From a virus (Duplodnaviria; Heunggongvirae; Uroviricota; Caudoviricetes): DNA of 8,876 nt. The first letter of the stretch is position 1. Each line of letters opens with the position of its first letter. The notes below the pieces were generated by a model that saw nothing but the letters and a program-made list of their open reading frames with translations, had not been told where the DNA came from and did not search any database. The position numbers and the translations under genes are program-made. Positions 2,953-8,427 of the stretch are shown piece by piece. The stretch lies in the IMG/VR virus record IMGVR_UViG_2703718798_000006; one strand, 5' to 3'.

Positions 2953-3104
2953 TTTATGAGAAAACATAAATACTCCTTTGTGTGGTTGGTTATCGTTACA
3001 ACAGTTCGGGCAAGAATTGCAAGGCGTAACGAAATTACTACAAAACCATGCGCCGGGCATGGCTAAAAACCCGGCACAAATTCACAGCAGCAGTAGGGAT
3101 TTTT

Positions 3105-3449
3105 ATGAAGAAACCGGGAAATTTTTCACAGCAGAATTTTCGAACAAGTGCCGAACGCCACGTTGCACGCCAGCACTTCCGCAAAAATAGTGCGACCACA
3201 ACCACTGAAATCCATGCCACACCAGACGGTCACCCGGTAAAACAAACCGGCAAGCACACCTGGGCGATTGGCGACACTGGCATCGTTATTCACAAAAGTT
3301 TTCGCAGCCCTGTTACTGGCCGATTTAATTTCACCCTGACTCGCGGGGATGATTACTTCGGACAGGACTTCACATTTTTTGAAGCCTTAAGAACGGCAGA
3401 CAGATTAATCAGCGGCCTGCGTTTTCAATATCCGGGAAGCAAGCACTGA
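3105..3449 (+). CDS. Hypothetical protein, 114 aa (ORF opens at ATG 3048)
   Basis: ATG 3105 preceded by AGGGA with 5-nt spacing; ATG 3048 has no SD. Globular-looking composition. Confidence 0.6.
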   Translation: MKKPGNFSQQNFRTSAERHVARQHFRKNSATTTTEIHATPDGHPVKQTGKHTWAIGDTGIVIHKSFRSPVTGRFNFTLTRGDDYFGQDFTFFEALRTADRLISGLRFQYPGSKH

Positions 3450-3467: not shown

Positions 3468-3710
3468 ATGATCGAAGCCTACAAAATACTTATCAATAAC
3501 GCGTTGCAACGTTATCACTTTGAACTCGCAAACCGGGGCGTAACTAAGGATGAAAGCCTTCGTAACTCACTGCGCGGCGCAATTATGGGGCTATACAACT
3601 GCGCACTGGGCAGCGATGACCGTGAAGCGCTGGAAGAATTAAAGTCGATTATGACAGAACTGTTTGAAGGTGAAATTGTCGAGCCTTACTTCACAGGGGT
3701 AGCCGCATGA
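3468..3710 (+). CDS. Hypothetical protein, 80 aa
   Basis: ATG 3468 preceded by AAGGA (3456-3460) at 7-nt spacing; stop overlaps the next start (ATGA at 3707-3710). Confidence 0.65.
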   Translation: MIEAYKILINNALQRYHFELANRGVTKDESLRNSLRGAIMGLYNCALGSDDREALEELKSIMTELFEGEIVEPYFTGVAA

Positions 3711-4046: not shown

Positions 4047-4280
4047 ATGAGAACAGCCGAATCACCCGGCAGAGAAATAACCGCCAGACCAGCTAACCAT
4101 CATGCGCATATCAGCATGGCCGCAAGAAAAGCCGAGCGTGCACATATCTGCGAATTACTGCGCGAGCTGACCGAGACAGCGAAAGAAAAACACACCTCCC
4201 CGCTGGAAACCTGTTCAGTCATTGAACGACTGATTGCAATGCTCACCAGCCAGGACGAACCGAAGGAGCCCGTACAATGA
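4047..4280 (+). CDS. Hypothetical protein, 77 aa (ORF opens at 4005)
   Basis: ATG 4047 preceded by AGGAG (4035-4039) at 7-nt spacing; the upstream ATG 4005 lies inside a hairpin with no SD. Stop overlaps the exonuclease start (ATGA). Confidence 0.55.
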   Translation: MRTAESPGREITARPANHHAHISMAARKAERAHICELLRELTETAKEKHTSPLETCSVIERLIAMLTSQDEPKEPVQ

Positions 4281-4858
4281 ACCATCTCATGATTGACACC
4301 GAAACACTGGGTAACGGACCGGACGCAGTCATATTCGCGATCGGCGCGGTGTTTTTCGACCCGTTCACCGGAAAACTGGGCAAGCAGTTTGAGAAATTCA
4401 TCGACCCGGTGGATTCAGAACGCAACGGCGGAACCGTCAGTGCAACAACCGCTGTATGGTGGGCCGGACAATCCGTGGAGGCCAGGGCCTGCCTGCGCAA
4501 CGCAGAGGGAACAGAGCTGGCAGCAGTGACCGAATTTCTGGCGTTCATTTCACGCAATATGCATGACGAAAGCCCGGGCAATTCACTGACCATATGGTGC
4601 AAGGGCGCATCCTTCGATTTCCCAATCCTGAGATCCGCCATAAAGCGAACAACCGGAGAAAAAAGTATTCCGTGGTGTTACTGGGACGAGCGCTGTATGC
4701 GTCCGCTTATCGCCATGGCTGAATCAACCGGCTGGAGAATGCCAGGCCGATCAGGAAAAGAGGCTATTGCTCACACTGCACTGGGCGATGCCATTTACCA
4801 GGCAAAGGTCGTGTCAGAAATCTGGCAGCGCTTCACAACGCCATTCCTGAACATATGA
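4277..4858 (+). CDS. DEDDh-type (DnaQ-like) 3'-5' exonuclease, 193 aa
   Basis: SD AAGGAG (4263-4268). Exo I motif MIDTETLG (Asp/Glu), central ...GASFDFPIL..., Exo III motif HTALGDAIYQ (His-x4-Asp), in the order expected for DEDDh exonucleases. Confidence 0.8.
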   Translation: MNHLMIDTETLGNGPDAVIFAIGAVFFDPFTGKLGKQFEKFIDPVDSERNGGTVSATTAVWWAGQSVEARACLRNAEGTELAAVTEFLAFISRNMHDESPGNSLTIWCKGASFDFPILRSAIKRTTGEKSIPWCYWDERCMRPLIAMAESTGWRMPGRSGKEAIAHTALGDAIYQAKVVSEIWQRFTTPFLNI

Positions 4859-4941
4859 GGTGAAGCATGGTCGCCATCCTGAATGTGTGTTGCTGCCCCC
4901 CCCTGAACGTGGAAAGAAAAGCCCGCGCATCGCTGCGTTTA

Positions 4942-4966
4942 TTCCGCAACGGTGTGCGGAATTTTT
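4942..4966 (+). terminator. Rho-independent terminator: 7-bp stem TTCCGCA/TGCGGAA, 6-nt loop, T5 tail
   Basis: Perfect hairpin immediately followed by TTTTT, in the gap between the exonuclease and dam. Confidence 0.55.
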
Positions 4967-5090
4967 CACGCATAAAGCCCCACAACTACCTGGTGATAAG
5001 AATCGGTTTTCGCTGGCGATTACTCAGCAAGAACAACGGGAAGTCATGGGATTTATTAACGCATGAAACCTATAACAAAGAGGCCGCGTT

Positions 5091-6071
5091 ATGAGCAAAG
5101 AACTGTTATCCGGCACACCGCTGAAATGGGTGGGTGGCAAAAGCCGCATCATGAACACACTGAAGGTGCATCTGCCAGAAGCTGACTGCCTGGTTGAACC
5201 GTTCGTGGGTGGCGCATCGGTATTCATGAACACCAGTTACAAACGCTACATCCTGGGTGATTCCAATGGTGCGCTGATTAATTTCTGGCGGGCAGCACGG
5301 GACAACACAGACAGTCTGATCGACGAGGCGAAAACCCTGTTCCTGAACCACAACAACAGGGGTGACTATCTCATCATTCGCGAAACCTTTAACGCAGAGA
5401 ATCATGCCTTCCTGAGTAGCAGAACGGGAATAAGCGACCGCCGTGAACTGCGACTGGCCGCCATGTTTTTGTACCTCAACCGGCACTGTTTTAATGGCCT
5501 GTACCGGGTGAACGGAAAAGGCGATTTTAACGTGCCTTTCGGCTGCTACCGCAAGCCCTATTTCCCTGAGCATGAAATCCGCGCATTTGCAGACAAGGCA
5601 AACAGCACCCGAACGCTGCTTATCCACGCAGATTTTAAGGATACGCTGAACTCTGCCAGTCACCTGTTCGGCATGGGCAACACGCTTTGCGTGTACTGCG
5701 ATCCCCCTTACCTGCAATTCAGTGGCCGGGACAATTTCACCGCCTACGGAAAACCATTCGATGAACACGAGCACGTTCGCCTGAGGGCAGCACTTGACCG
5801 CCTTTCGCAGGAAACGGGCGGCATGACCAGCATCACCATCTCCAATTCCGACACACCGGAAACCAGACGCATTTATCAGGGTTACCGGATGAACTGCATA
5901 CAGGCACCACGCAGCGTTGGCGCAAGAACCCGCGAACCAGCACCGGAAGTTATCGCCACCCTGAGACAGTGCGACGCCTGCGGTCACTATGGCGGTGGCT
6001 ACTGCCCGGACTGCGGACCGGTAACGGGAGATGCAACTTACTGCGTGATGTTTACCCCTGCCAGTACGTGA
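5091..6071 (+). CDS. dam: Dam-family N6-adenine DNA methyltransferase with C-terminal Cys4 extension, 326 aa
   Basis: SD AGAGG at 7-nt spacing. N-terminal LKWVGGK and AdoMet motif FVGGASVF (res 38-45), catalytic DPPY (res 204-207). C-terminal CDACGHYGGGYCPDCG (CxxC-x7-CxxC, nt 5970..6014) not present in canonical Dam as I recall it. GATC specificity not verifiable here. Confidence 0.9.
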   Translation: MSKELLSGTPLKWVGGKSRIMNTLKVHLPEADCLVEPFVGGASVFMNTSYKRYILGDSNGALINFWRAARDNTDSLIDEAKTLFLNHNNRGDYLIIRETFNAENHAFLSSRTGISDRRELRLAAMFLYLNRHCFNGLYRVNGKGDFNVPFGCYRKPYFPEHEIRAFADKANSTRTLLIHADFKDTLNSASHLFGMGNTLCVYCDPPYLQFSGRDNFTAYGKPFDEHEHVRLRAALDRLSQETGGMTSITISNSDTPETRRIYQGYRMNCIQAPRSVGARTREPAPEVIATLRQCDACGHYGGGYCPDCGPVTGDATYCVMFTPAST

Positions 6072-6343: not shown

Positions 6344-6558
6344 TCCAGGAGTCAACCGTCATCCGGTTCACAGCCAACGGCCGCCAGTACGAAGTCGACG
6401 AAAGCCTGATTGACCAGGGCATGACACGCCAGGATTCACGCAATCCTGAGATGCATCACATCCGCCTTATCAACGGTTCTCACTTCTGCGCCACGAACAT
6501 GGAAGAAGTACGCGTGCTGACAGCAACACGCAACGCGGGAGGTAAAGCATGGCCGTGA
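6340..6558 (+). CDS. Hypothetical protein, 72 aa
   Basis: Translationally coupled to the upstream gene; AAGGGG upstream; 3' end overlaps the next gene by 10 nt. Confidence 0.6.
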   Translation: MIQESTVIRFTANGRQYEVDESLIDQGMTRQDSRNPEMHHIRLINGSHFCATNMEEVRVLTATRNAGGKAWP

Positions 6559-6899
6559 TTTATATCGCCGGTCCCATGACCGGATACAAAGACGACAACA
6601 GACTGGAGTTTTGCCTGGCGGACCTGAAGCTTAGGTACGCCGGAAACATTGTTCTTAATCCTGCCGTACTGCCTGACGGATTAAGCCAGCAGCAGTACAT
6701 GAGCATTTGTATTCCGATGCTCATGTGTGCCGATGCCATTTACTTACTGGATGGATGGGAAGAGTCCGCTGGCGCACGGGCTGAGTACGCAATGGCACTC
6801 AAGCTGAACATGCCGGTGTCATTCCCGGAAAATCGGGCGGCCGGCGAAACTGTCGCACAGCTGCTTGGCAAATCAAAAGCCGCACAGGCGACTGAGTAA
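6549..6899 (+). CDS. Nucleoside 2-deoxyribosyltransferase-like (DUF4406-type) protein, 116 aa
   Basis: SD GGGAGG upstream. N-terminal VIYIAGPMTG and later ...DAIYLLDGWEESAGARAEYAMA... match the motif pattern I associate with the NDT-like/DUF4406 fold. Confidence 0.65.
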   Translation: MAVIYIAGPMTGYKDDNRLEFCLADLKLRYAGNIVLNPAVLPDGLSQQQYMSICIPMLMCADAIYLLDGWEESAGARAEYAMALKLNMPVSFPENRAAGETVAQLLGKSKAAQATE

Positions 6900-7337
6900 C
6901 CGACCGGAGATCGAAACATGATTGCGCGAAGAGCTGCCAACCGCCTCACAGGCTTTATTCCAGGCAAGATTAATCATGCACTCCATGATGGGACTGTCAC
7001 TTTCCTCAACAAAGGAGAGGCGCGCAATCATGCATTCCTTACTAATCACATGGCGCTGACTGATAAGGCGCTGGTAACTGACTGCCTGCCATTCAGCCTT
7101 TTCAGCCCTGCGTTCAAAACTGGCAGCCATGCACTGCCAAAGCAGAAACAGAACCACACTGAAGAGTACCAACACAACAAAATCACACAGGACAAACGCC
7201 GCAACACCAACCAGAAAGGCGCTGATTCGCAGAGCAGCAGAAACGCGTCGGTGAAACACACATGTAATACGTTCAAGCCAGTAGCTGTACCACAGGTCAA
7301 AAAGAATGTCGTAATCAGAAGGGAGCTTATCACTCAT
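6873..7337 (-). CDS. Hypothetical two-TM membrane protein, 154 aa, antisense to the early operon (alternative start ATG 7397)
   Basis: Internal ATG (7337) of minus ORF 6873..7673. Two adjacent hydrophobic helices (ISAFLVGVAAFVLC-D-FVVLVLFSVVLFLLW) flanked by basic residues. The overlapping plus ORF 6918..8030 is low-complexity and runs through two terminators. Weak SD (GGGG 10 nt upstream). Confidence 0.4.
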   Translation of the reverse strand: MSDKLPSDYDILFDLWYSYWLERITCVFHRRVSAALRISAFLVGVAAFVLCDFVVLVLFSVVLFLLWQCMAASFERRAEKAEWQAVSYQRLISQRHVISKECMIARLSFVEESDSPIMECMINLAWNKACEAVGSSSRNHVSISGRLLSRLCGF

Positions 7338-7500
7338 CAGAAACACCCCGCGTATGCAGACAATCACCAGTTGCCAGGTGATATTAATTCGCCACATTCT
7401 AACCACATCAGCACGCAACACAAAAACCGCTTGCCAGCGTTCGCCTGGTCGGGTTACAGTTTTCCCGCACCTCATAAAACGGGTGCCGGGATTGCAACCC

Positions 7501-7542
7501 CCGCTGACTACACAAGCGCACAACCGCGCCAGCGGTTTTTTT
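7501..7542 (+). terminator. Strong Rho-independent terminator T1: stem CCGCTG/CAGCGG with internal GCGC/GCGC sub-stem, then T7
   Basis: 6-bp GC-rich outer stem (7501-7506 / 7530-7535) directly followed by TTTTTTT (7536-7542); 4-bp inner stem 7516-7519 / 7526-7529. Confidence 0.6.
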
Positions 7543-7582
7543 GTGCGTACCGCATCGTCACATCTTTTTCGCGTCAGAATTA

Positions 7583-7660
7583 TGGTGGGGCGTACAGGGC
7601 CGACTTCGGTCGGGCCGGGGTCTTGTGTAGCCGGTGGTTGCAACCCTGTACGTCTCACCA
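7583..7660 (+). ncRNA. Candidate structured RNA (sRNA or cis-acting leader/antiterminator) in the 17-bp stem fold
   Basis: 7583-7599 pairs with 7644-7660 over 17 bp including two G-U wobbles (7590-7653, 7588-7655), which are valid only in plus-strand RNA. Enclosed hairpin 7600-7604/7609-7613 has loop TTCG with C-G closing pair (cUUCGg). ORF-free region. Confidence 0.45.
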
Positions 7661-7692
7661 CCCAGAATTGCAACCTCTGGATGGTGAGTTTT
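7654..7692 (+). terminator. Putative intrinsic terminator T2: 7-bp + 5-bp stem (one mismatch), 9-nt loop, T4 tail; mutually exclusive with the 17-bp stem
   Basis: CTCACCA(7654-7660)/TGGTGAG(7682-7688) and CCAGA(7662-7666)/TCTGG(7676-7680), followed by TTTT (7689-7692). The 5' arm is also the 3' arm of the long stem at 7583-7660. Confidence 0.45.
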
Positions 7693-7720
7693 CAAAACTT
7701 ACTACACAAGAGGCCACACC

Positions 7721-7948
7721 ATGGCAAACCGCAAGCAACAGCGCGCCCGCGCTGAGCGTCTTCACATCCACACCGAAATCAACCGCAGACTCCATCGGGC
7801 TGCATCTGTCTCCTTCATCATGCAGTCAAACGTATTACACCGACTTAACGACGGTATCGCTGCCGGGTATTACGCGGCAGTCTTCAGCTATCTGGCCGAA
7901 GACCTGGCAGAACTGCAGGACCTTATCAACCAGCAACACCACCACTAA
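7721..7948 (+). CDS. Hypothetical small basic/helical protein, 75 aa, ending HHH
   Basis: ATG 7721 preceded by AAGAGG (7708-7713) at 7-nt spacing; first gene after the structured leader. Confidence 0.6.
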   Translation: MANRKQQRARAERLHIHTEINRRLHRAASVSFIMQSNVLHRLNDGIAAGYYAAVFSYLAEDLAELQDLINQQHHH

Positions 7949-8016
7949 ACAACATCCTGAAGCCATCCCGCACCCGTGCGCGGGAGGCTTCCGCACGTCT
8001 GTTACCGGAGGTTCTC

Positions 8017-8427
8017 ATGAAGAGCGTTAAGGGACTTTCAGATATTCAGGATTTTTTTAACTGGATGTGGGCAGTGGATCCCCGGCTGGCTTCCCGCCTG
8101 AACGACTGGCACGACTATTACCGCCGCGCCTGTAAACAGGCCGCCAGACACGTCACCACATACGGGGATTTCTCCTTCACCGTTGACGACCGTTACCGCG
8201 TGGACGTGAAAGGTGATGGTTTTGGTTTATTTCACATCAACGGAACCGACAGCACCGCCATCAGTTGGTCGTCGTCAGAGATGACGCTTGTTCTGGAAAT
8301 GACAACGCACAGCGTGGCCGTGAAAGGCATATACACCGCAGAAGACTTTATCGGTGAATATCAGCGCCTTCTCGTGCTGTACCGCGCGGCGTTTCAGGCG
8401 GCGACTGCCGGGGAGTGCGACGCATGA
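8017..8427 (+). CDS. Hypothetical protein, 136 aa
   Basis: ATG 8017 preceded by GGAGG (8007-8011); stop overlaps the next start (ATGA 8424-8427). Confidence 0.65.
   Translation: MKSVKGLSDIQDFFNWMWAVDPRLASRLNDWHDYYRRACKQAARHVTTYGDFSFTVDDRYRVDVKGDGFGLFHINGTDSTAISWSSSEMTLVLEMTTHSVAVKGIYTAEDFIGEYQRLLVLYRAAFQAATAGECDA

What the first reader, a model, noticed from the sequence alone, without database searches (positions are those of the whole stretch)
6873..7397. Antisense two-TM membrane protein gene embedded in the rightward early operon, with a palindrome in its upstream region
A minus-strand ORF encodes a protein with two adjacent hydrophobic helices, convergently overlapping the NDT-like gene by 27 nt. 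Its upstream region carries the inverted repeat ATCACCAG-TTGC-CAGGTGAT (7363-7382; 7 of 8 arm positions complementary). Opposite-orientation genes with their own promoter in temperate phages are often lysogen-expressed morons, and small membrane proteins in that role are frequently superinfection-exclusion or abortive-infection factors. The gene call is uncertain because the opposite strand also carries a long (likely shadow) ORF.
Basis: partly seen in the sequence, partly recalled or inferred. Interest (0 to 1): 0.6.

Follow-up and report, generated by a model that had tools for sequence, protein, structure and literature searches.

The report
Antisense prophage membrane-protein gene, SLATT-like
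The minus-strand reading frame is a real, conserved gene for a small two-helix inner-membrane protein of an uncharacterised phage family. In P2-like and lambda-like prophages it always points against the early lytic genes, which makes it a good but untested candidate for a lysogen-expressed phage-exclusion factor.

Summary
The minus-strand ORF, its two hydrophobic helices, the 27-nt overlap with the DUF4406 gene, the palindrome and the long plus-strand ORF are all at the stated coordinates.

The ORF is a real gene. Between E. coli alleles dN/dS is 0.21 in its frame and 1.15 in the plus-strand frame, which is a shadow. It matches PHROG 6315 (E 2e-54). It has about 155-aa homologues across Enterobacterales prophages and 225 clusters at 50% identity in the wider library.

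The true start is most likely ATG 7337 (154 aa), not ATG 7397.

AlphaFold gives a confident helical hairpin followed by short helices. Weak but repeated hits point to SLATT 2TM effector domains. No curated cut-off is reached and no nucleotide-signalling partner gene is nearby.

In every locus with gene calls the gene runs against the early lytic genes: P2-like phages of five genera and lambdoid prophages.

The palindrome is not special. Ten of equal quality occur in the window, and it is degenerate or absent in other alleles.

Lysogen expression and an exclusion or abortive-infection role are inferred, not shown.

Next to the gene lies an isrK–C4–derepression module whose pairing sites covary between alleles.

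The parts
6873..7337 (-). Protein-coding gene: a 154-aa inner-membrane protein. An N-terminal cytoplasmic helix runs into TM1 (~33-51), followed by a very short turn, TM2 (~53-72), a long cytoplasmic helix and three short helices. Family PHROG 6315.
   Evidence: - dN/dS is 0.21 in this frame against 0.46-1.95 in the other five frames; 0.15-0.44 by segment and allele pair.
- PHROG 6315, E 2e-54.
- 34% identical homologue in Yersinia phage vB_YenM_42.18, E 2e-25.
- A 21-sequence alignment with 14 invariant residues.
- AlphaFold mean pLDDT 85.4, pTM 0.77.
- Hydropathy profile.
7338..7397 (-). Leader region: probably 5' UTR plus promoter -10, not coding. It is an in-frame 20-codon extension that PGAP sometimes annotates, giving the 174-aa form.
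   Evidence: - Homologues are 154-159 aa and their N-termini align with ATG 7337; the PHROG profile is 152 positions long.
- The 13 differences from L007 show no third-position bias: 5/3/5 by codon position.
- Alleles L015 and L016 have no such extension.
- The Shine-Dalgarno-like GGGG (GGAG in L007) lies 8 nt before ATG 7337; none precedes ATG 7397.
7363..7382 (.). Imperfect palindrome ATCACCAG-TTGC-CAGGTGAT. On the minus-strand RNA it would form a 7/8 stem with a GCAA loop.
   Evidence: - Present as described.
- One of 10 equivalent inverted repeats in the window.
- 8 of the 13 leader differences from L007 fall inside it and break the pairing.
- Absent in L015 and L016.
- Leader fold z = -0.46.
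7396..7423 (-). Predicted sigma-70 promoter of the membrane-protein gene: -35 TTGTGT (7423-7418), 16-nt spacer, -10 TAGAAT (7401-7396). The predicted start is near 7389.
   Evidence: - Read directly from the sequence. At 8/12 matches it falls below the threshold of the scan.
- The position is conserved in L002, L007 and L016, and L016 has a perfect TATAAT there.
- The -10 overlaps ATG 7397, which argues against the 174-aa form.
- Not verified experimentally.
6878..6893 (-). Weak terminator-like hairpin followed by TTTGATTTG, overlapping the last codons and the stop of the gene.
   Evidence: Consensus scan; weak, 6 pairs counting G-T. A much stronger terminator (14 pairs) follows the homologue in Pectobacterium, L013 6491-6524.
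6918..8030 (+). Shadow ORF, not a gene. It is codon-for-codon antisense to the membrane-protein gene and runs across isrK and C4.
   Evidence: - dN/dS 1.15.
- No family hit.
- It covers the two Rfam RNA matches.
- The same frame compared with the Yersinia phage scores 36 bits, against 82 bits for the minus frame.
- RefSeq annotates nothing on this strand here.
6549..6899 (+). Context: DUF4406 / nucleoside 2-deoxyribosyltransferase-like gene, the last early-operon gene before the antisense gene.
   Evidence: Pfam PF14359, E 8e-33; PHROG 355, E 2.7e-38.
7431..7542 (+). Context: isrK-like sRNA (7467-7542) with its promoter (TTGCCA-18-TACAGT, 7431-7460) and terminator (7522-7537 plus a T run). The promoter is divergent from, and back to back with, that of the membrane-protein gene.
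   Evidence: Rfam RF01394, 59.6 bits (gathering score 50); promoter and terminator scan.
7578..7948 (+). Context: C4 antisense RNA (7578-7665), followed by the 'derepression protein' gene (7721-7948). The gene's ribosome-binding region (7702-7713) is complementary to a C4 loop.
   Evidence: Rfam RF01695, 78 bits (gathering score 45); Pfam PF25738, E 7.6e-7; three-way covariation between alleles.

Best explanation
**Shown**
- Window 6873-7337 (minus strand) is a genuine gene.
- Its 154-aa product is predicted to be an inner-membrane protein with both ends in the cytoplasm. A conserved N-terminal helix (W16, W20, E22, R31) continues into TM1. A two-residue turn follows, then TM2, which continues into a long helix (Q84, Y88). 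Three short helices complete it (E112, D114, N123, A125, A129).
- It belongs to an uncharacterised phage family, PHROG 6315, which is not in Pfam. The family is found in P2-like and lambdoid prophages of Proteobacteria.
- In all 13 loci with gene calls or RefSeq annotation the gene runs against the adjacent early lytic genes. In a cruder ORF-based survey of 43 loci the nearest downstream ORF is on the opposite strand in 32.

**Inferred**
- It is an autonomous transcription unit, driven by a sigma-70 promoter (TTGTGT-16-TAGAAT) back to back with the isrK promoter.
- It would therefore be expressed while the early operon is repressed, that is in the lysogen. Convergent early transcription would then shut it down when the prophage itself is induced.
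- By its architecture and its faint SLATT-like signal, the protein most likely acts as a membrane effector in phage-phage conflict. It could exclude a superinfecting phage, or abort its infection by perturbing the inner membrane.
- Antisense gating would protect the prophage's own lytic cycle from this activity.

**Sub-confidences**
- Real gene and membrane protein of this family: 0.95.
- Start at 7337: 0.8.
- Lysogen-expressed accessory unit: 0.6.
- Exclusion or abortive-infection function: about 0.4.
For: **Coding**
- dN/dS is 0.21 (43.7 synonymous and 44.3 non-synonymous changes against L002; binomial p 8e-9). The aligned plus frame gives 1.15.
- The signal holds in three allele pairs and in all three segments of the protein.

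**Family**
- PHROG 6315, E 2e-54.
- 19 clusters of 155-159 aa in Yersinia, Pectobacterium, Brenneria, Serratia, Sodalis, Enterobacter and Pantoea.
- 225 clusters at 50% identity with E <= 1e-3; nearly all full-length hits are 146-190 aa.
- Two further, highly divergent alleles sit at the same site in E. coli prophages.

**Structure**
- pLDDT 85.4, a helical hairpin plus three helices; hydropathy, and basic residues flanking both TM segments on the N- and C-terminal sides.

**SLATT-like signal**
- NCBIfam SLATT_4 at E <= 0.01 in 25 of 112 family members (best 8.6e-7). The next family is SLATT_1 with 3 members, and no unrelated family has more than 2.
- Pfam SLATT_3 and SLATT_fungal give faint hits.
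- Foldseek against viral models puts SLATT proteins at ranks 1, 6, 10, 12, 15 and 18.
- UniRef names family member P0178 as a SLATT protein.

**Orientation**
- Opposite to the early genes and the same as repressor and integrase in E. coli, Yersinia, Serratia, Pantoea and Pectobacterium.
- In lambdoid prophages it lies between the cII-like gene and the replication genes.
- In L013 a strong early-promoter-like site (TTGACA-18-TAAATT) fires through the cassette, which has its own 14-pair terminator.
- In a crude survey of 43 loci, the first downstream ORF is on the opposite strand in 32.

**Promoter**
- The -10 is conserved in place across alleles whose downstream leaders are unrelated.
Against: - No transcription, translation or phenotype data exist for any family member that I could find.
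- The window protein itself has no SLATT hit at E <= 0.1. No family member reaches a curated SLATT cut-off: the scores shown are 15-22 bits against cut-offs of 55 and 41.
- The fold-search E-values are 0.035 or worse, and a helical hairpin is a common shape.
- No SMODS, SLOG, TIR or reverse-transcriptase partner is nearby in any locus with gene calls.
- PADLOC has no hit.
- The promoter is only 8/12 to consensus, and the terminator in the window is weak.
- Selection is purifying throughout, with none of the diversifying selection often seen in conflict genes.
- The gene is fixed in this prophage lineage rather than sporadic, so a role in the phage's own biology cannot be excluded.
Confidence: 0.5

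Rival explanations
1. The unit serves the prophage's own regulation. Transcription from the antisense promoter collides with early lytic transcription. It acts as a brake on leaky read-through into the isrK-C4-antirepressor module and the replication genes, comparable in position to lambda oop between cII and O. Alternatively the protein has a role in the phage's own replication or lysis timing. Exclusion of other phages would not be its function.
For: - The position just upstream of the replication genes, with opposing orientation, recurs in both P2-like and lambdoid prophages.
- In Pectobacterium the cassette sits between the early-promoter-like site and cox.
- The gene is fixed in this E. 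coli prophage lineage.
- Selection is purifying and uniform.
Against: - Transcriptional interference alone would not need a conserved 154-aa membrane protein with 14 invariant residues and dN/dS of 0.2.
- The family is absent from most P2-like phages: only 29 of 5426 complete E. coli genomes carry this lineage's DUF4406-linked locus. It is therefore dispensable for the basic life cycle.
- The boundary between regulatory and replication modules is also a common place for accessory genes.
Confidence: 0.2
2. It is the toxic half of a small addiction or toxin-antidote pair. In other taxa a 27-39-aa acidic peptide, encoded immediately upstream, neutralises the membrane protein. The window allele has lost the peptide and is kept harmless by low expression.
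For: A small ORF with a strong Shine-Dalgarno sequence and the motif D-F-H-V-L-H-K-P-A-P-P-E-E...DDEE ends 3-10 nt before the homologue's ATG. This is seen in Yersinia, Serratia, Pantoea and Pectobacterium, with a shorter version in E. coli L015. SLATT-type proteins are regarded as membrane-permeabilising effectors (PMC7159879, PMC9503650).
Against: - The peptide is missing from the window and from alleles L002, L007 and L016, where the membrane gene is still under purifying selection.
- The peptide matches no known family.
- No toxicity data exist.
Confidence: 0.1
3. The protein starts at ATG 7397 (174 aa, as PGAP annotates in several genomes). The palindrome is then coding sequence for a third hydrophobic N-terminal segment.
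For: - The frame is open, and ATG 7397 is conserved in L001-L005 and L007.
- The 20 extra residues are hydrophobic in both alleles.
- RefSeq uses this start in L001, L004 and L005.
Against: - All 21 aligned homologues are 154-159 aa with N-termini matching ATG 7337.
- There is no third-position bias in the extension and no Shine-Dalgarno sequence before 7397.
- ATG 7397 overlaps the conserved -10 hexamer.
- L015 and L016 lack the extension.
- RefSeq uses the 154-aa start in L002 and L003.
Confidence: 0.1
4. There is no minus-strand gene. The ORF is a chance or shadow ORF of a plus-strand early gene.
For: A longer ORF (370 aa) lies on the plus strand. In Yersinia phage vB_YenM_42.18 the deposited annotation places the gene (gp08) on the early-operon strand.
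Against: - Plus-frame dN/dS is 1.15 against 0.21.
- The plus ORF crosses two RNA genes and has no family hit.
- Minus-frame similarity between E. coli and Yersinia is 82 bits, against 36 bits for the plus frame.
- PHROG 6315 matches the minus frame.
Confidence: 0.02

Closest known systems
PHROG 6315 (phage protein family of unknown function)
   Same: Full-length profile match: residues 6-154 against profile positions 2-149 of 152, E 2e-54. All alleles and distant homologues tested hit the same PHROG.
   Different: Nothing differs; this is the family. It carries no function, has no Pfam model and has no literature that I could find.
SLATT 2TM effector domains (SMODS- and SLOG-associating 2TM; Pfam PF18181/18183/18184/18186/18160, NCBIfam NF033632/NF033634)
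   Same: - Size about 150 aa, with an N-terminal helix, a tight two-TM hairpin and a C-terminal helical region.
- Repeated sub-threshold hits to SLATT_4 and SLATT_1 over the TM hairpin and the following helix.
- SLATT proteins top the viral fold search.
- The setting is mobile elements engaged in conflict.
   Different: - No curated threshold is reached, and the window protein itself gives no hit.
- The family is stand-alone, with no nucleotide-synthesising or reverse-transcriptase partner nearby. Described SLATT effectors sit beside CD-NTase/AGS-C, TIR or RT genes (PMC11381338, PMC9503650, 10.64898/2026.04.29.721553).
- The only recurrent neighbour is a small acidic peptide ORF.
Lysogen-expressed small membrane exclusion proteins of temperate phages (P22 SieA/SieB, lambda SieB and RexB, HK97 gp15, K139 Glo). 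Comparison from general knowledge.
   Same: A small inner-membrane protein encoded in the immunity/early region of a prophage, transcribed independently of the lytic operons.
   Different: No sequence relationship was detected: there is no Pfam SieB or other hit and no PADLOC hit. No exclusion phenotype has been tested.
Morons (autonomous promoter-gene-terminator units inserted between phage genes; Hendrix and colleagues). From general knowledge.
   Same: Opposite orientation to its neighbours, a candidate promoter of its own, and a terminator. The terminator is strong in the Pectobacterium homologue.
   Different: - It is not sporadic within this lineage: every E. coli prophage of the lineage that was inspected has an allele at the site.
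- GC content differs only slightly from its neighbours, 0.50 against 0.54.
- The promoter and the window's terminator are weak matches.
Lambda oop / antisense transcription between cII and O. From general knowledge.
   Same: In lambdoid relatives the gene occupies the cII-replication gap and is transcribed against pR-type transcription.
   Different: oop is a 77-nt non-coding RNA. Here the antisense unit encodes a conserved 154-aa protein.

Membership tests
PHROG 6315 | Significant full-length match to the family profile | tested here: met
   E 2e-54, 184.5 bits, residues 6-154 against profile 2-149/152. Alleles L015 and L016, and distant members P0176 and P0178, also match.
SLATT domain (Pfam / NCBIfam models) | Score at or above the curated cut-off of a SLATT model | tested here: not met
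   The window protein has no SLATT hit at E <= 0.1 in NCBIfam or E <= 1 in Pfam. Among the relatives whose bit scores were listed, the highest is 22 bits against the cut-off of 55 (SLATT_4) and 18 against 41 (SLATT_1). 25 of 112 members reach E <= 0.01 for SLATT_4, the best at 8.6e-7.
SLATT domain (Pfam / NCBIfam models) | Two closely spaced TM helices flanked by N- and C-terminal helical segments, about 150 aa | tested here: met
   AlphaFold H8-50, H54-93, H100-111, H119-133 and H143-152, pLDDT 85; hydropathy.
SLATT domain (Pfam / NCBIfam models) | Fold similarity to SLATT structures or models | tested here: inconclusive
   In the BFVD Foldseek search, SLATT-named proteins are at ranks 1, 6, 10, 12, 15 and 18. 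E-values are 0.035-0.67 and TM-scores 0.34-0.53. No SLATT-like hit appears in the PDB. The afdb50 library was not available.
SLATT domain (Pfam / NCBIfam models) | Gene-neighbourhood link to a nucleotide-signal or DNA-synthesis partner (SMODS/CD-NTase, SLOG, TIR, reverse transcriptase) | tested here: not met
   No such gene lies within 5-6 kb in the 13 loci with gene calls or annotation. Neighbours are phage regulatory, methylase and replication genes.
Moron (autonomous accessory transcription unit) | Own promoter and terminator | tested here: inconclusive
   The promoter is TTGTGT-16-TAGAAT (8/12), conserved in place, with TATAAT in L016. The window's terminator-like hairpin is weak; the one in L013 is strong. 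There is no transcript mapping.
Moron (autonomous accessory transcription unit) | Present or absent between otherwise adjacent genes of related phages | tested here: not met
   Of 29 E. coli genomes with this lineage's DUF4406 region, 25 carry the window-type alleles. The two other loci inspected carry divergent PHROG 6315 alleles at the same site. No empty site was seen.
Known superinfection-exclusion / defence families (SieB PF14163 and others; PADLOC models) | Profile match | tested here: not met
   No Pfam hit to Sie, Imm or holin families in the window protein or in the 112 relatives. No PADLOC hit.
Lysogen-expressed prophage gene | Transcription in the repressed prophage | not testable with these tools
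   Only orientation (the same as repressor and integrase) and a predicted promoter are available. RNA-seq or 5' mapping is needed.

The most novel reading that the evidence does not exclude
PHROG 6315 could be a stand-alone, SLATT-derived pore-forming effector that temperate phages of two unrelated lineages (P2-like and lambdoid) deliberately place antisense in their early lytic operon. The lysogen would then be armed with a membrane 'suicide or exclusion' switch against superinfecting phages. The prophage's own early transcription would disarm the switch by convergent collision on induction. In many alleles a co-translated acidic micro-peptide (D-F-H-V-L-H-K-P-A-P-P-E-E) would act as its keeper or sensor. 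This would be a new one- or two-gene anti-phage system with a built-in self-protection logic.
Probability: 0.2. Interest if true: 0.75.

Novelty: new variant of a known kind. Interest (0 to 1): 0.5.

Why it matters
Prophage accessory genes expressed in lysogens are a main source of phage-resistance factors. The known hotspots of P2-like phages lie elsewhere: at the old/tin locus, and in P4 satellites (PMC9122126).

This family is widespread, with 225 clusters at 50% identity. It is uncharacterised and inconsistently annotated: the start codon varies between records, and in one reference phage genome the gene is placed on the wrong strand.

It shows an unusually strict design rule. In every locus with gene calls, in two unrelated phage lineages, it points against the early lytic genes.

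If it is a stand-alone SLATT-like membrane effector, two things would follow. SLATT-type effectors would be shown to work without a nucleotide-signalling partner. And it would be a clean example of convergent transcription used to protect a phage from its own defence gene.

If it is instead a regulator of leaky early transcription, it would bear on how P2-like prophages keep replication and antirepressor genes silent.

Tried and rejected
- **Plus-strand ORF as the real gene.** Rejected on dN/dS, its overlap with isrK and C4, and cross-species similarity.
- **The 174-aa start.** Judged unlikely.
- **Palindrome as operator or stabilising hairpin.** It has no statistical excess of its own, is not conserved, has no related site elsewhere in the window, and the fold is unremarkable.
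- **Pfam.** No family for the window protein beyond sub-threshold noise (Mlo, DUF6239, DUF6136) and none for the 112 relatives.
- **PADLOC.** Nothing.
- **afdb50 fold library.** Unavailable.
- **Genome-contig scan with the single protein.** No relative found, because the patterns were too specific.
- **Viral-contig scan with the 112-sequence alignment.** The 21-sequence alignment worked.
- **Obligatory link to isrK-C4.** Rejected. The RNAs are absent from the Yersinia, Serratia, Pantoea and Pectobacterium loci, and membrane-gene alleles do not track C4 specificities.
- **Positive or diversifying selection in the TM region.** Not seen; dN/dS is 0.19-0.44.
- **Co-transcription with the repressor in Pectobacterium.** Judged unlikely, because a 14-pair terminator follows the gene and an early-type promoter faces it.
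- **Literature.** Searches for SLATT with prophage or superinfection exclusion, for PHROG 6315, and for antisense membrane genes in P2-like early operons found no description of this family.
Full report
**What the window is**

The window is the left end and early region of a P2/186-like (Peduoviridae) prophage of E. coli.

- On the minus strand: integrase (117-1124) and an HTH repressor (1179-1661).
- On the plus strand: a rightward early operon with a 3'-5' exonuclease (4277-4858), a Dam methylase (5091-6071) and a DUF4406 / nucleoside-deoxyribosyltransferase-like gene (6549-6899).
- The best E. coli match, 95.5% identical over 6500-7800, continues into a replication endonuclease (gpA), portal and terminase.
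- To the right of the finding, Rfam finds an isrK-like sRNA (7467-7542, 59.6 bits) and a C4 antisense RNA (7578-7665, 78 bits). Both are on the plus strand.
- After them comes a 75-aa 'derepression protein' gene (7721-7948, PF25738).

**The observation**

- The minus-strand frame is open from 7673 to the stop at 6873-6875. It has in-frame ATGs at 7397 and 7337.
- RefSeq annotates it in related genomes as a hypothetical protein of either 174 aa or 154 aa.
- The 27-nt overlap with DUF4406 is there, as are the palindrome at 7363-7382 (7 of 8) and the long plus-strand ORF 6918-8030.

**Is it a gene?**

E. coli carries two main alleles that are 83% identical at the DNA level, and a third in metagenome contigs.

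- Nei-Gojobori counts between the window and L002 give dS 0.64, dN 0.13 and dN/dS 0.21 in the minus ORF frame.
- The plus-strand ORF frame gives 1.15. The other four frames give 0.46-1.95 and contain 7-20 stop codons.
- Synonymous changes number 43.7 of 88, where 19 are expected (p = 8e-9).
- The signal holds for three allele pairs and for the N-terminal, TM and C-terminal thirds: 0.15-0.44.
- The plus ORF is codon-for-codon antisense to the gene. That is the classical shadow frame, closed only by TTA, CTA or TCA codons in the real gene. It also runs across both RNA genes.

The protein matches PHROG 6315 at E 2e-54. A 34%-identical homologue (E 2e-25) lies in Yersinia phage vB_YenM_42.18. There the deposited annotation (gp08) is on the opposite strand. 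The minus-type frame is conserved at 82 bits and the gp08 frame at only 36 bits. The gene call is therefore secure.

**Start codon**

- Nineteen clusters from Yersinia, Pectobacterium, Brenneria, Serratia, Sodalis, Enterobacter and Pantoea are 155-159 aa. Their N-termini (M-x-K-Q-P-T-E) align with ATG 7337.
- The 60 nt between the two ATGs differ from allele L007 at 13 positions, with no third-position bias.
- Alleles L015 and L016 have unrelated leaders with no in-frame extension.
- ATG 7397 overlaps a TAGAAT hexamer. That hexamer sits 16 nt downstream of TTGTGT, and L016 has TATAAT at exactly the same place.

I read this as the gene's promoter: -35 at 7423-7418, -10 at 7401-7396, and a start near 7389. 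It stands back to back with the isrK promoter, TTGCCA-18-TACAGT at 7431-7460. The promoter is a prediction. At 8/12 to consensus it falls below the scan's threshold.

**The palindrome**

The palindrome is real but unremarkable.

- Ten inverted repeats of the same quality occur in the window, against 3.8 +/- 1.9 in simulated sequence. The leader RNA fold has z = -0.46.
- Eight of the 13 differences in the L007 leader fall inside the palindrome and break the pairing. L015 and L016 lack it.
- No related site exists elsewhere in the window.

It may form a 5' hairpin with a GCAA loop in this allele. Nothing indicates an operator.

**The protein**

AlphaFold, run with the 21-sequence alignment, gives mean pLDDT 85.4 and pTM 0.77. 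Two long helices (8-50 and 54-93) form a hairpin, followed by three short helices. Hydropathy places the membrane spans at about 33-51 and 53-72. Basic residues lie before TM1 (HRR) and after TM2 (ERRAEK), which implies that both ends are cytoplasmic.

Invariant residues cluster in three places:
- the N-terminal helix (W16, W20, E22, R31);
- the helix after TM2 (Q84, Y88);
- the C-terminal part (E112, D114, N123, A125, A129).

A profile search of 1.84 billion representatives finds 225 clusters at E <= 1e-3. Nearly all the full-length hits are 146-190 aa, with no long multidomain protein among the 150 listed, so the family is stand-alone.

**What it resembles**

Pfam has no model for the family, PADLOC has nothing, and the PDB shows only generic helical hairpins. 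One weak signal nevertheless recurs from independent sources:

- NCBIfam SLATT_4 is hit at E <= 0.01 by 25 of 112 members (best 8.6e-7). SLATT_1 is hit by 3 members, and no unrelated family by more than 2.
- Pfam SLATT_3 and SLATT_fungal give faint hits.
- Foldseek against viral models ranks SLATT proteins 1, 6, 10, 12, 15 and 18, at E 0.035-0.67.
- UniRef names family member P0178 as a SLATT protein.

SLATT domains are two-TM effectors predicted to open the membrane in response to nucleotide signals (PMC7159879, PMC9503650). They occur beside CD-NTases, TIR proteins or reverse transcriptases (PMC11381338, 10.64898/2026.04.29.721553).

Here no curated cut-off is reached and the window protein itself gives no hit. 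No such partner gene is present in any of the 13 loci with gene calls. I therefore call it SLATT-like and do not file it as a SLATT family member.

**Context across phages**

This is the most informative result.

- **E. coli.** Twenty-nine complete genomes carry this lineage's DUF4406 region, and 25 carry the window-type alleles. The two others I inspected carry 30-40%-identical PHROG 6315 alleles at exactly the same site and strand. No empty site was seen.
- **Other P2-like prophages.** In Yersinia, Serratia and Pantoea the homologue again lies inside the early operon on the opposite strand.
- **Pectobacterium.** The homologue lies between the repressor gene and cox. A strong early-type promoter (TTGACA-18-TAAATT) next to the repressor gene fires through it, and it has its own 14-pair terminator.
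- **Lambdoid prophages.** Distant members in Vibrio prophages and metagenome contigs lie between the cro/cII-like genes and the replication genes. They are oriented like cI.
- **Wider survey.** In 43 loci, including 37 from IMG/VR, the nearest downstream ORF is on the opposite strand in 32. This survey is crude.

The gene thus has the orientation of the lysogenic genes and opposes early lytic transcription.

**How it most likely works**

Shown: it is a conserved membrane protein, and its placement is antisense.

Inferred:
1. The unit is transcribed from its own promoter while the early operon is repressed, that is in the lysogen.
2. On induction, convergent early transcription shuts it down.
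3. The protein acts at the inner membrane against superinfecting phages, either by exclusion or by aborting the infection through membrane perturbation, as its SLATT-like architecture suggests.
4. The antisense placement protects the prophage's own lytic growth from this activity.

I give about 0.6 to lysogen expression and about 0.4 to the defence role.

The rivals are these:
- A role in the phage's own regulation, through transcriptional interference with leaky early transcription into the antirepressor and replication genes.
- A toxin-antidote pair with the small acidic peptide found upstream in other taxa.
- The 174-aa form.
- No gene at all, which is refuted.

**Novelty**

The gene belongs to an existing but uncharacterised PHROG. 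I found no paper on it. The known defence hotspots of P2-like phages are elsewhere (PMC9122126). Three things are new here:
- the demonstration that the family is real, widespread and inconsistently annotated;
- its faint SLATT affinity without a signalling partner;
- the strict antisense placement in two unrelated temperate-phage lineages.

Function remains untested, so I score interest as moderate.

Noticed in passing
window 7467-7948 (+); compared with L001-L005: The module isrK-like sRNA, C4 antisense RNA and 'derepression protein' shows three-way covariation between near-identical prophages. C4 loop A (7622-7630, CUUGUGUAG) and loop B (7636-7645) are complementary to a site pair inside isrK (7492-7499 and 7508-7516). 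They are also complementary to a second pair just before the derepression gene (7668-7675 and 7702-7710), the latter overlapping its ribosome-binding site. At least four specificity combinations exist: win, L001, L002-L004 and L005. L005 mixes the A site of L001 with a new B site. This is the P1 c4 / P4 CI type of RNA immunity, here inside a P2-like prophage and controlling an epsilon-like antirepressor.
   Followed up: partly
L003 2073-3293; L005 2722-3772: Some E. coli prophages of this lineage carry a tandem duplication of the isrK-C4-derepression module, with two 'derepression' / 73-aa genes in a row.
   Followed up: no
L008 3873-3992; L009/L010 ~5899-5994; L012 ~5905-5994; L013 ~5880-5993; L015 ~3606-3689 (minus strand): In Yersinia, Serratia, Pantoea and Pectobacterium, and in one E. 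coli allele, the homologue is preceded on the same strand by a 27-39-aa acidic ORF. That ORF has a strong Shine-Dalgarno sequence and the motif D-F-H-V-L-H-K-P-A/E-P-P-E-E...DDEE, and it ends 3-10 nt before the membrane gene's ATG. It matches no PHROG. It is absent from the window allele.
   Followed up: partly
window ~2955-3090 (minus strand): This is a copy of the conserved leader that precedes the small-ORF-plus-membrane-gene cassette in other taxa. It consists of the hairpin GTGCCGGG...CCCGGCGC, then ATGGTTTTGT(A/G)GTAATTTCGTTA(C/T)GCC, a second hairpin and AAGGAG. Here it is followed only by a 13-codon ORF (MFSHKLFRQFALH) and no membrane gene. It lies antisense between two early-operon ORFs. 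No Rfam family matches it. Its function is unknown: promoter, leader or remnant.
   Followed up: partly
L008 3809-4474 (NC_070913.1 2950-3615): In the reference genome of Yersinia phage vB_YenM_42.18 the annotated gp08 (221 aa, early-operon strand) appears to be the shadow of the unannotated PHROG 6315 gene on the other strand (record 2974-3423). The annotated gpB start also looks over-extended into the conserved leader element.
   Followed up: partly
L002 2073-2261; L003 2073-2441 and 2633-2821; L016 3638-3826: RefSeq annotates minus-strand 'hypothetical proteins' lying across the isrK and C4 RNA genes. These are probably spurious ORFs over structured RNA.
   Followed up: no
window ~4867-5094 (+): A small ORF between the exonuclease and Dam genes corresponds to what RefSeq calls a 'ParE family toxin-like protein' (PF24732 in L006). 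No adjacent antitoxin gene is annotated in the related loci.
   Followed up: no
P0006 (E. coli, 174 aa, 'Uncharacterised protein'): This database homologue switches in and out of frame relative to the other alleles. Compensating frameshifts are the likely cause, probably assembly indel errors rather than a real variant.
   Followed up: no
L009/L011 1-1634 and 9209-11261; L010 176-1393: The Serratia P2-like prophages that carry the homologue also carry known-type defence cargo. Beyond gpA there is an AAA plus Peptidase_S8 pair, or a SduA_C (Shedu-like) gene. Next to the integrase there is an AAA_15/AAA_21 gene with a partner.
   Followed up: no
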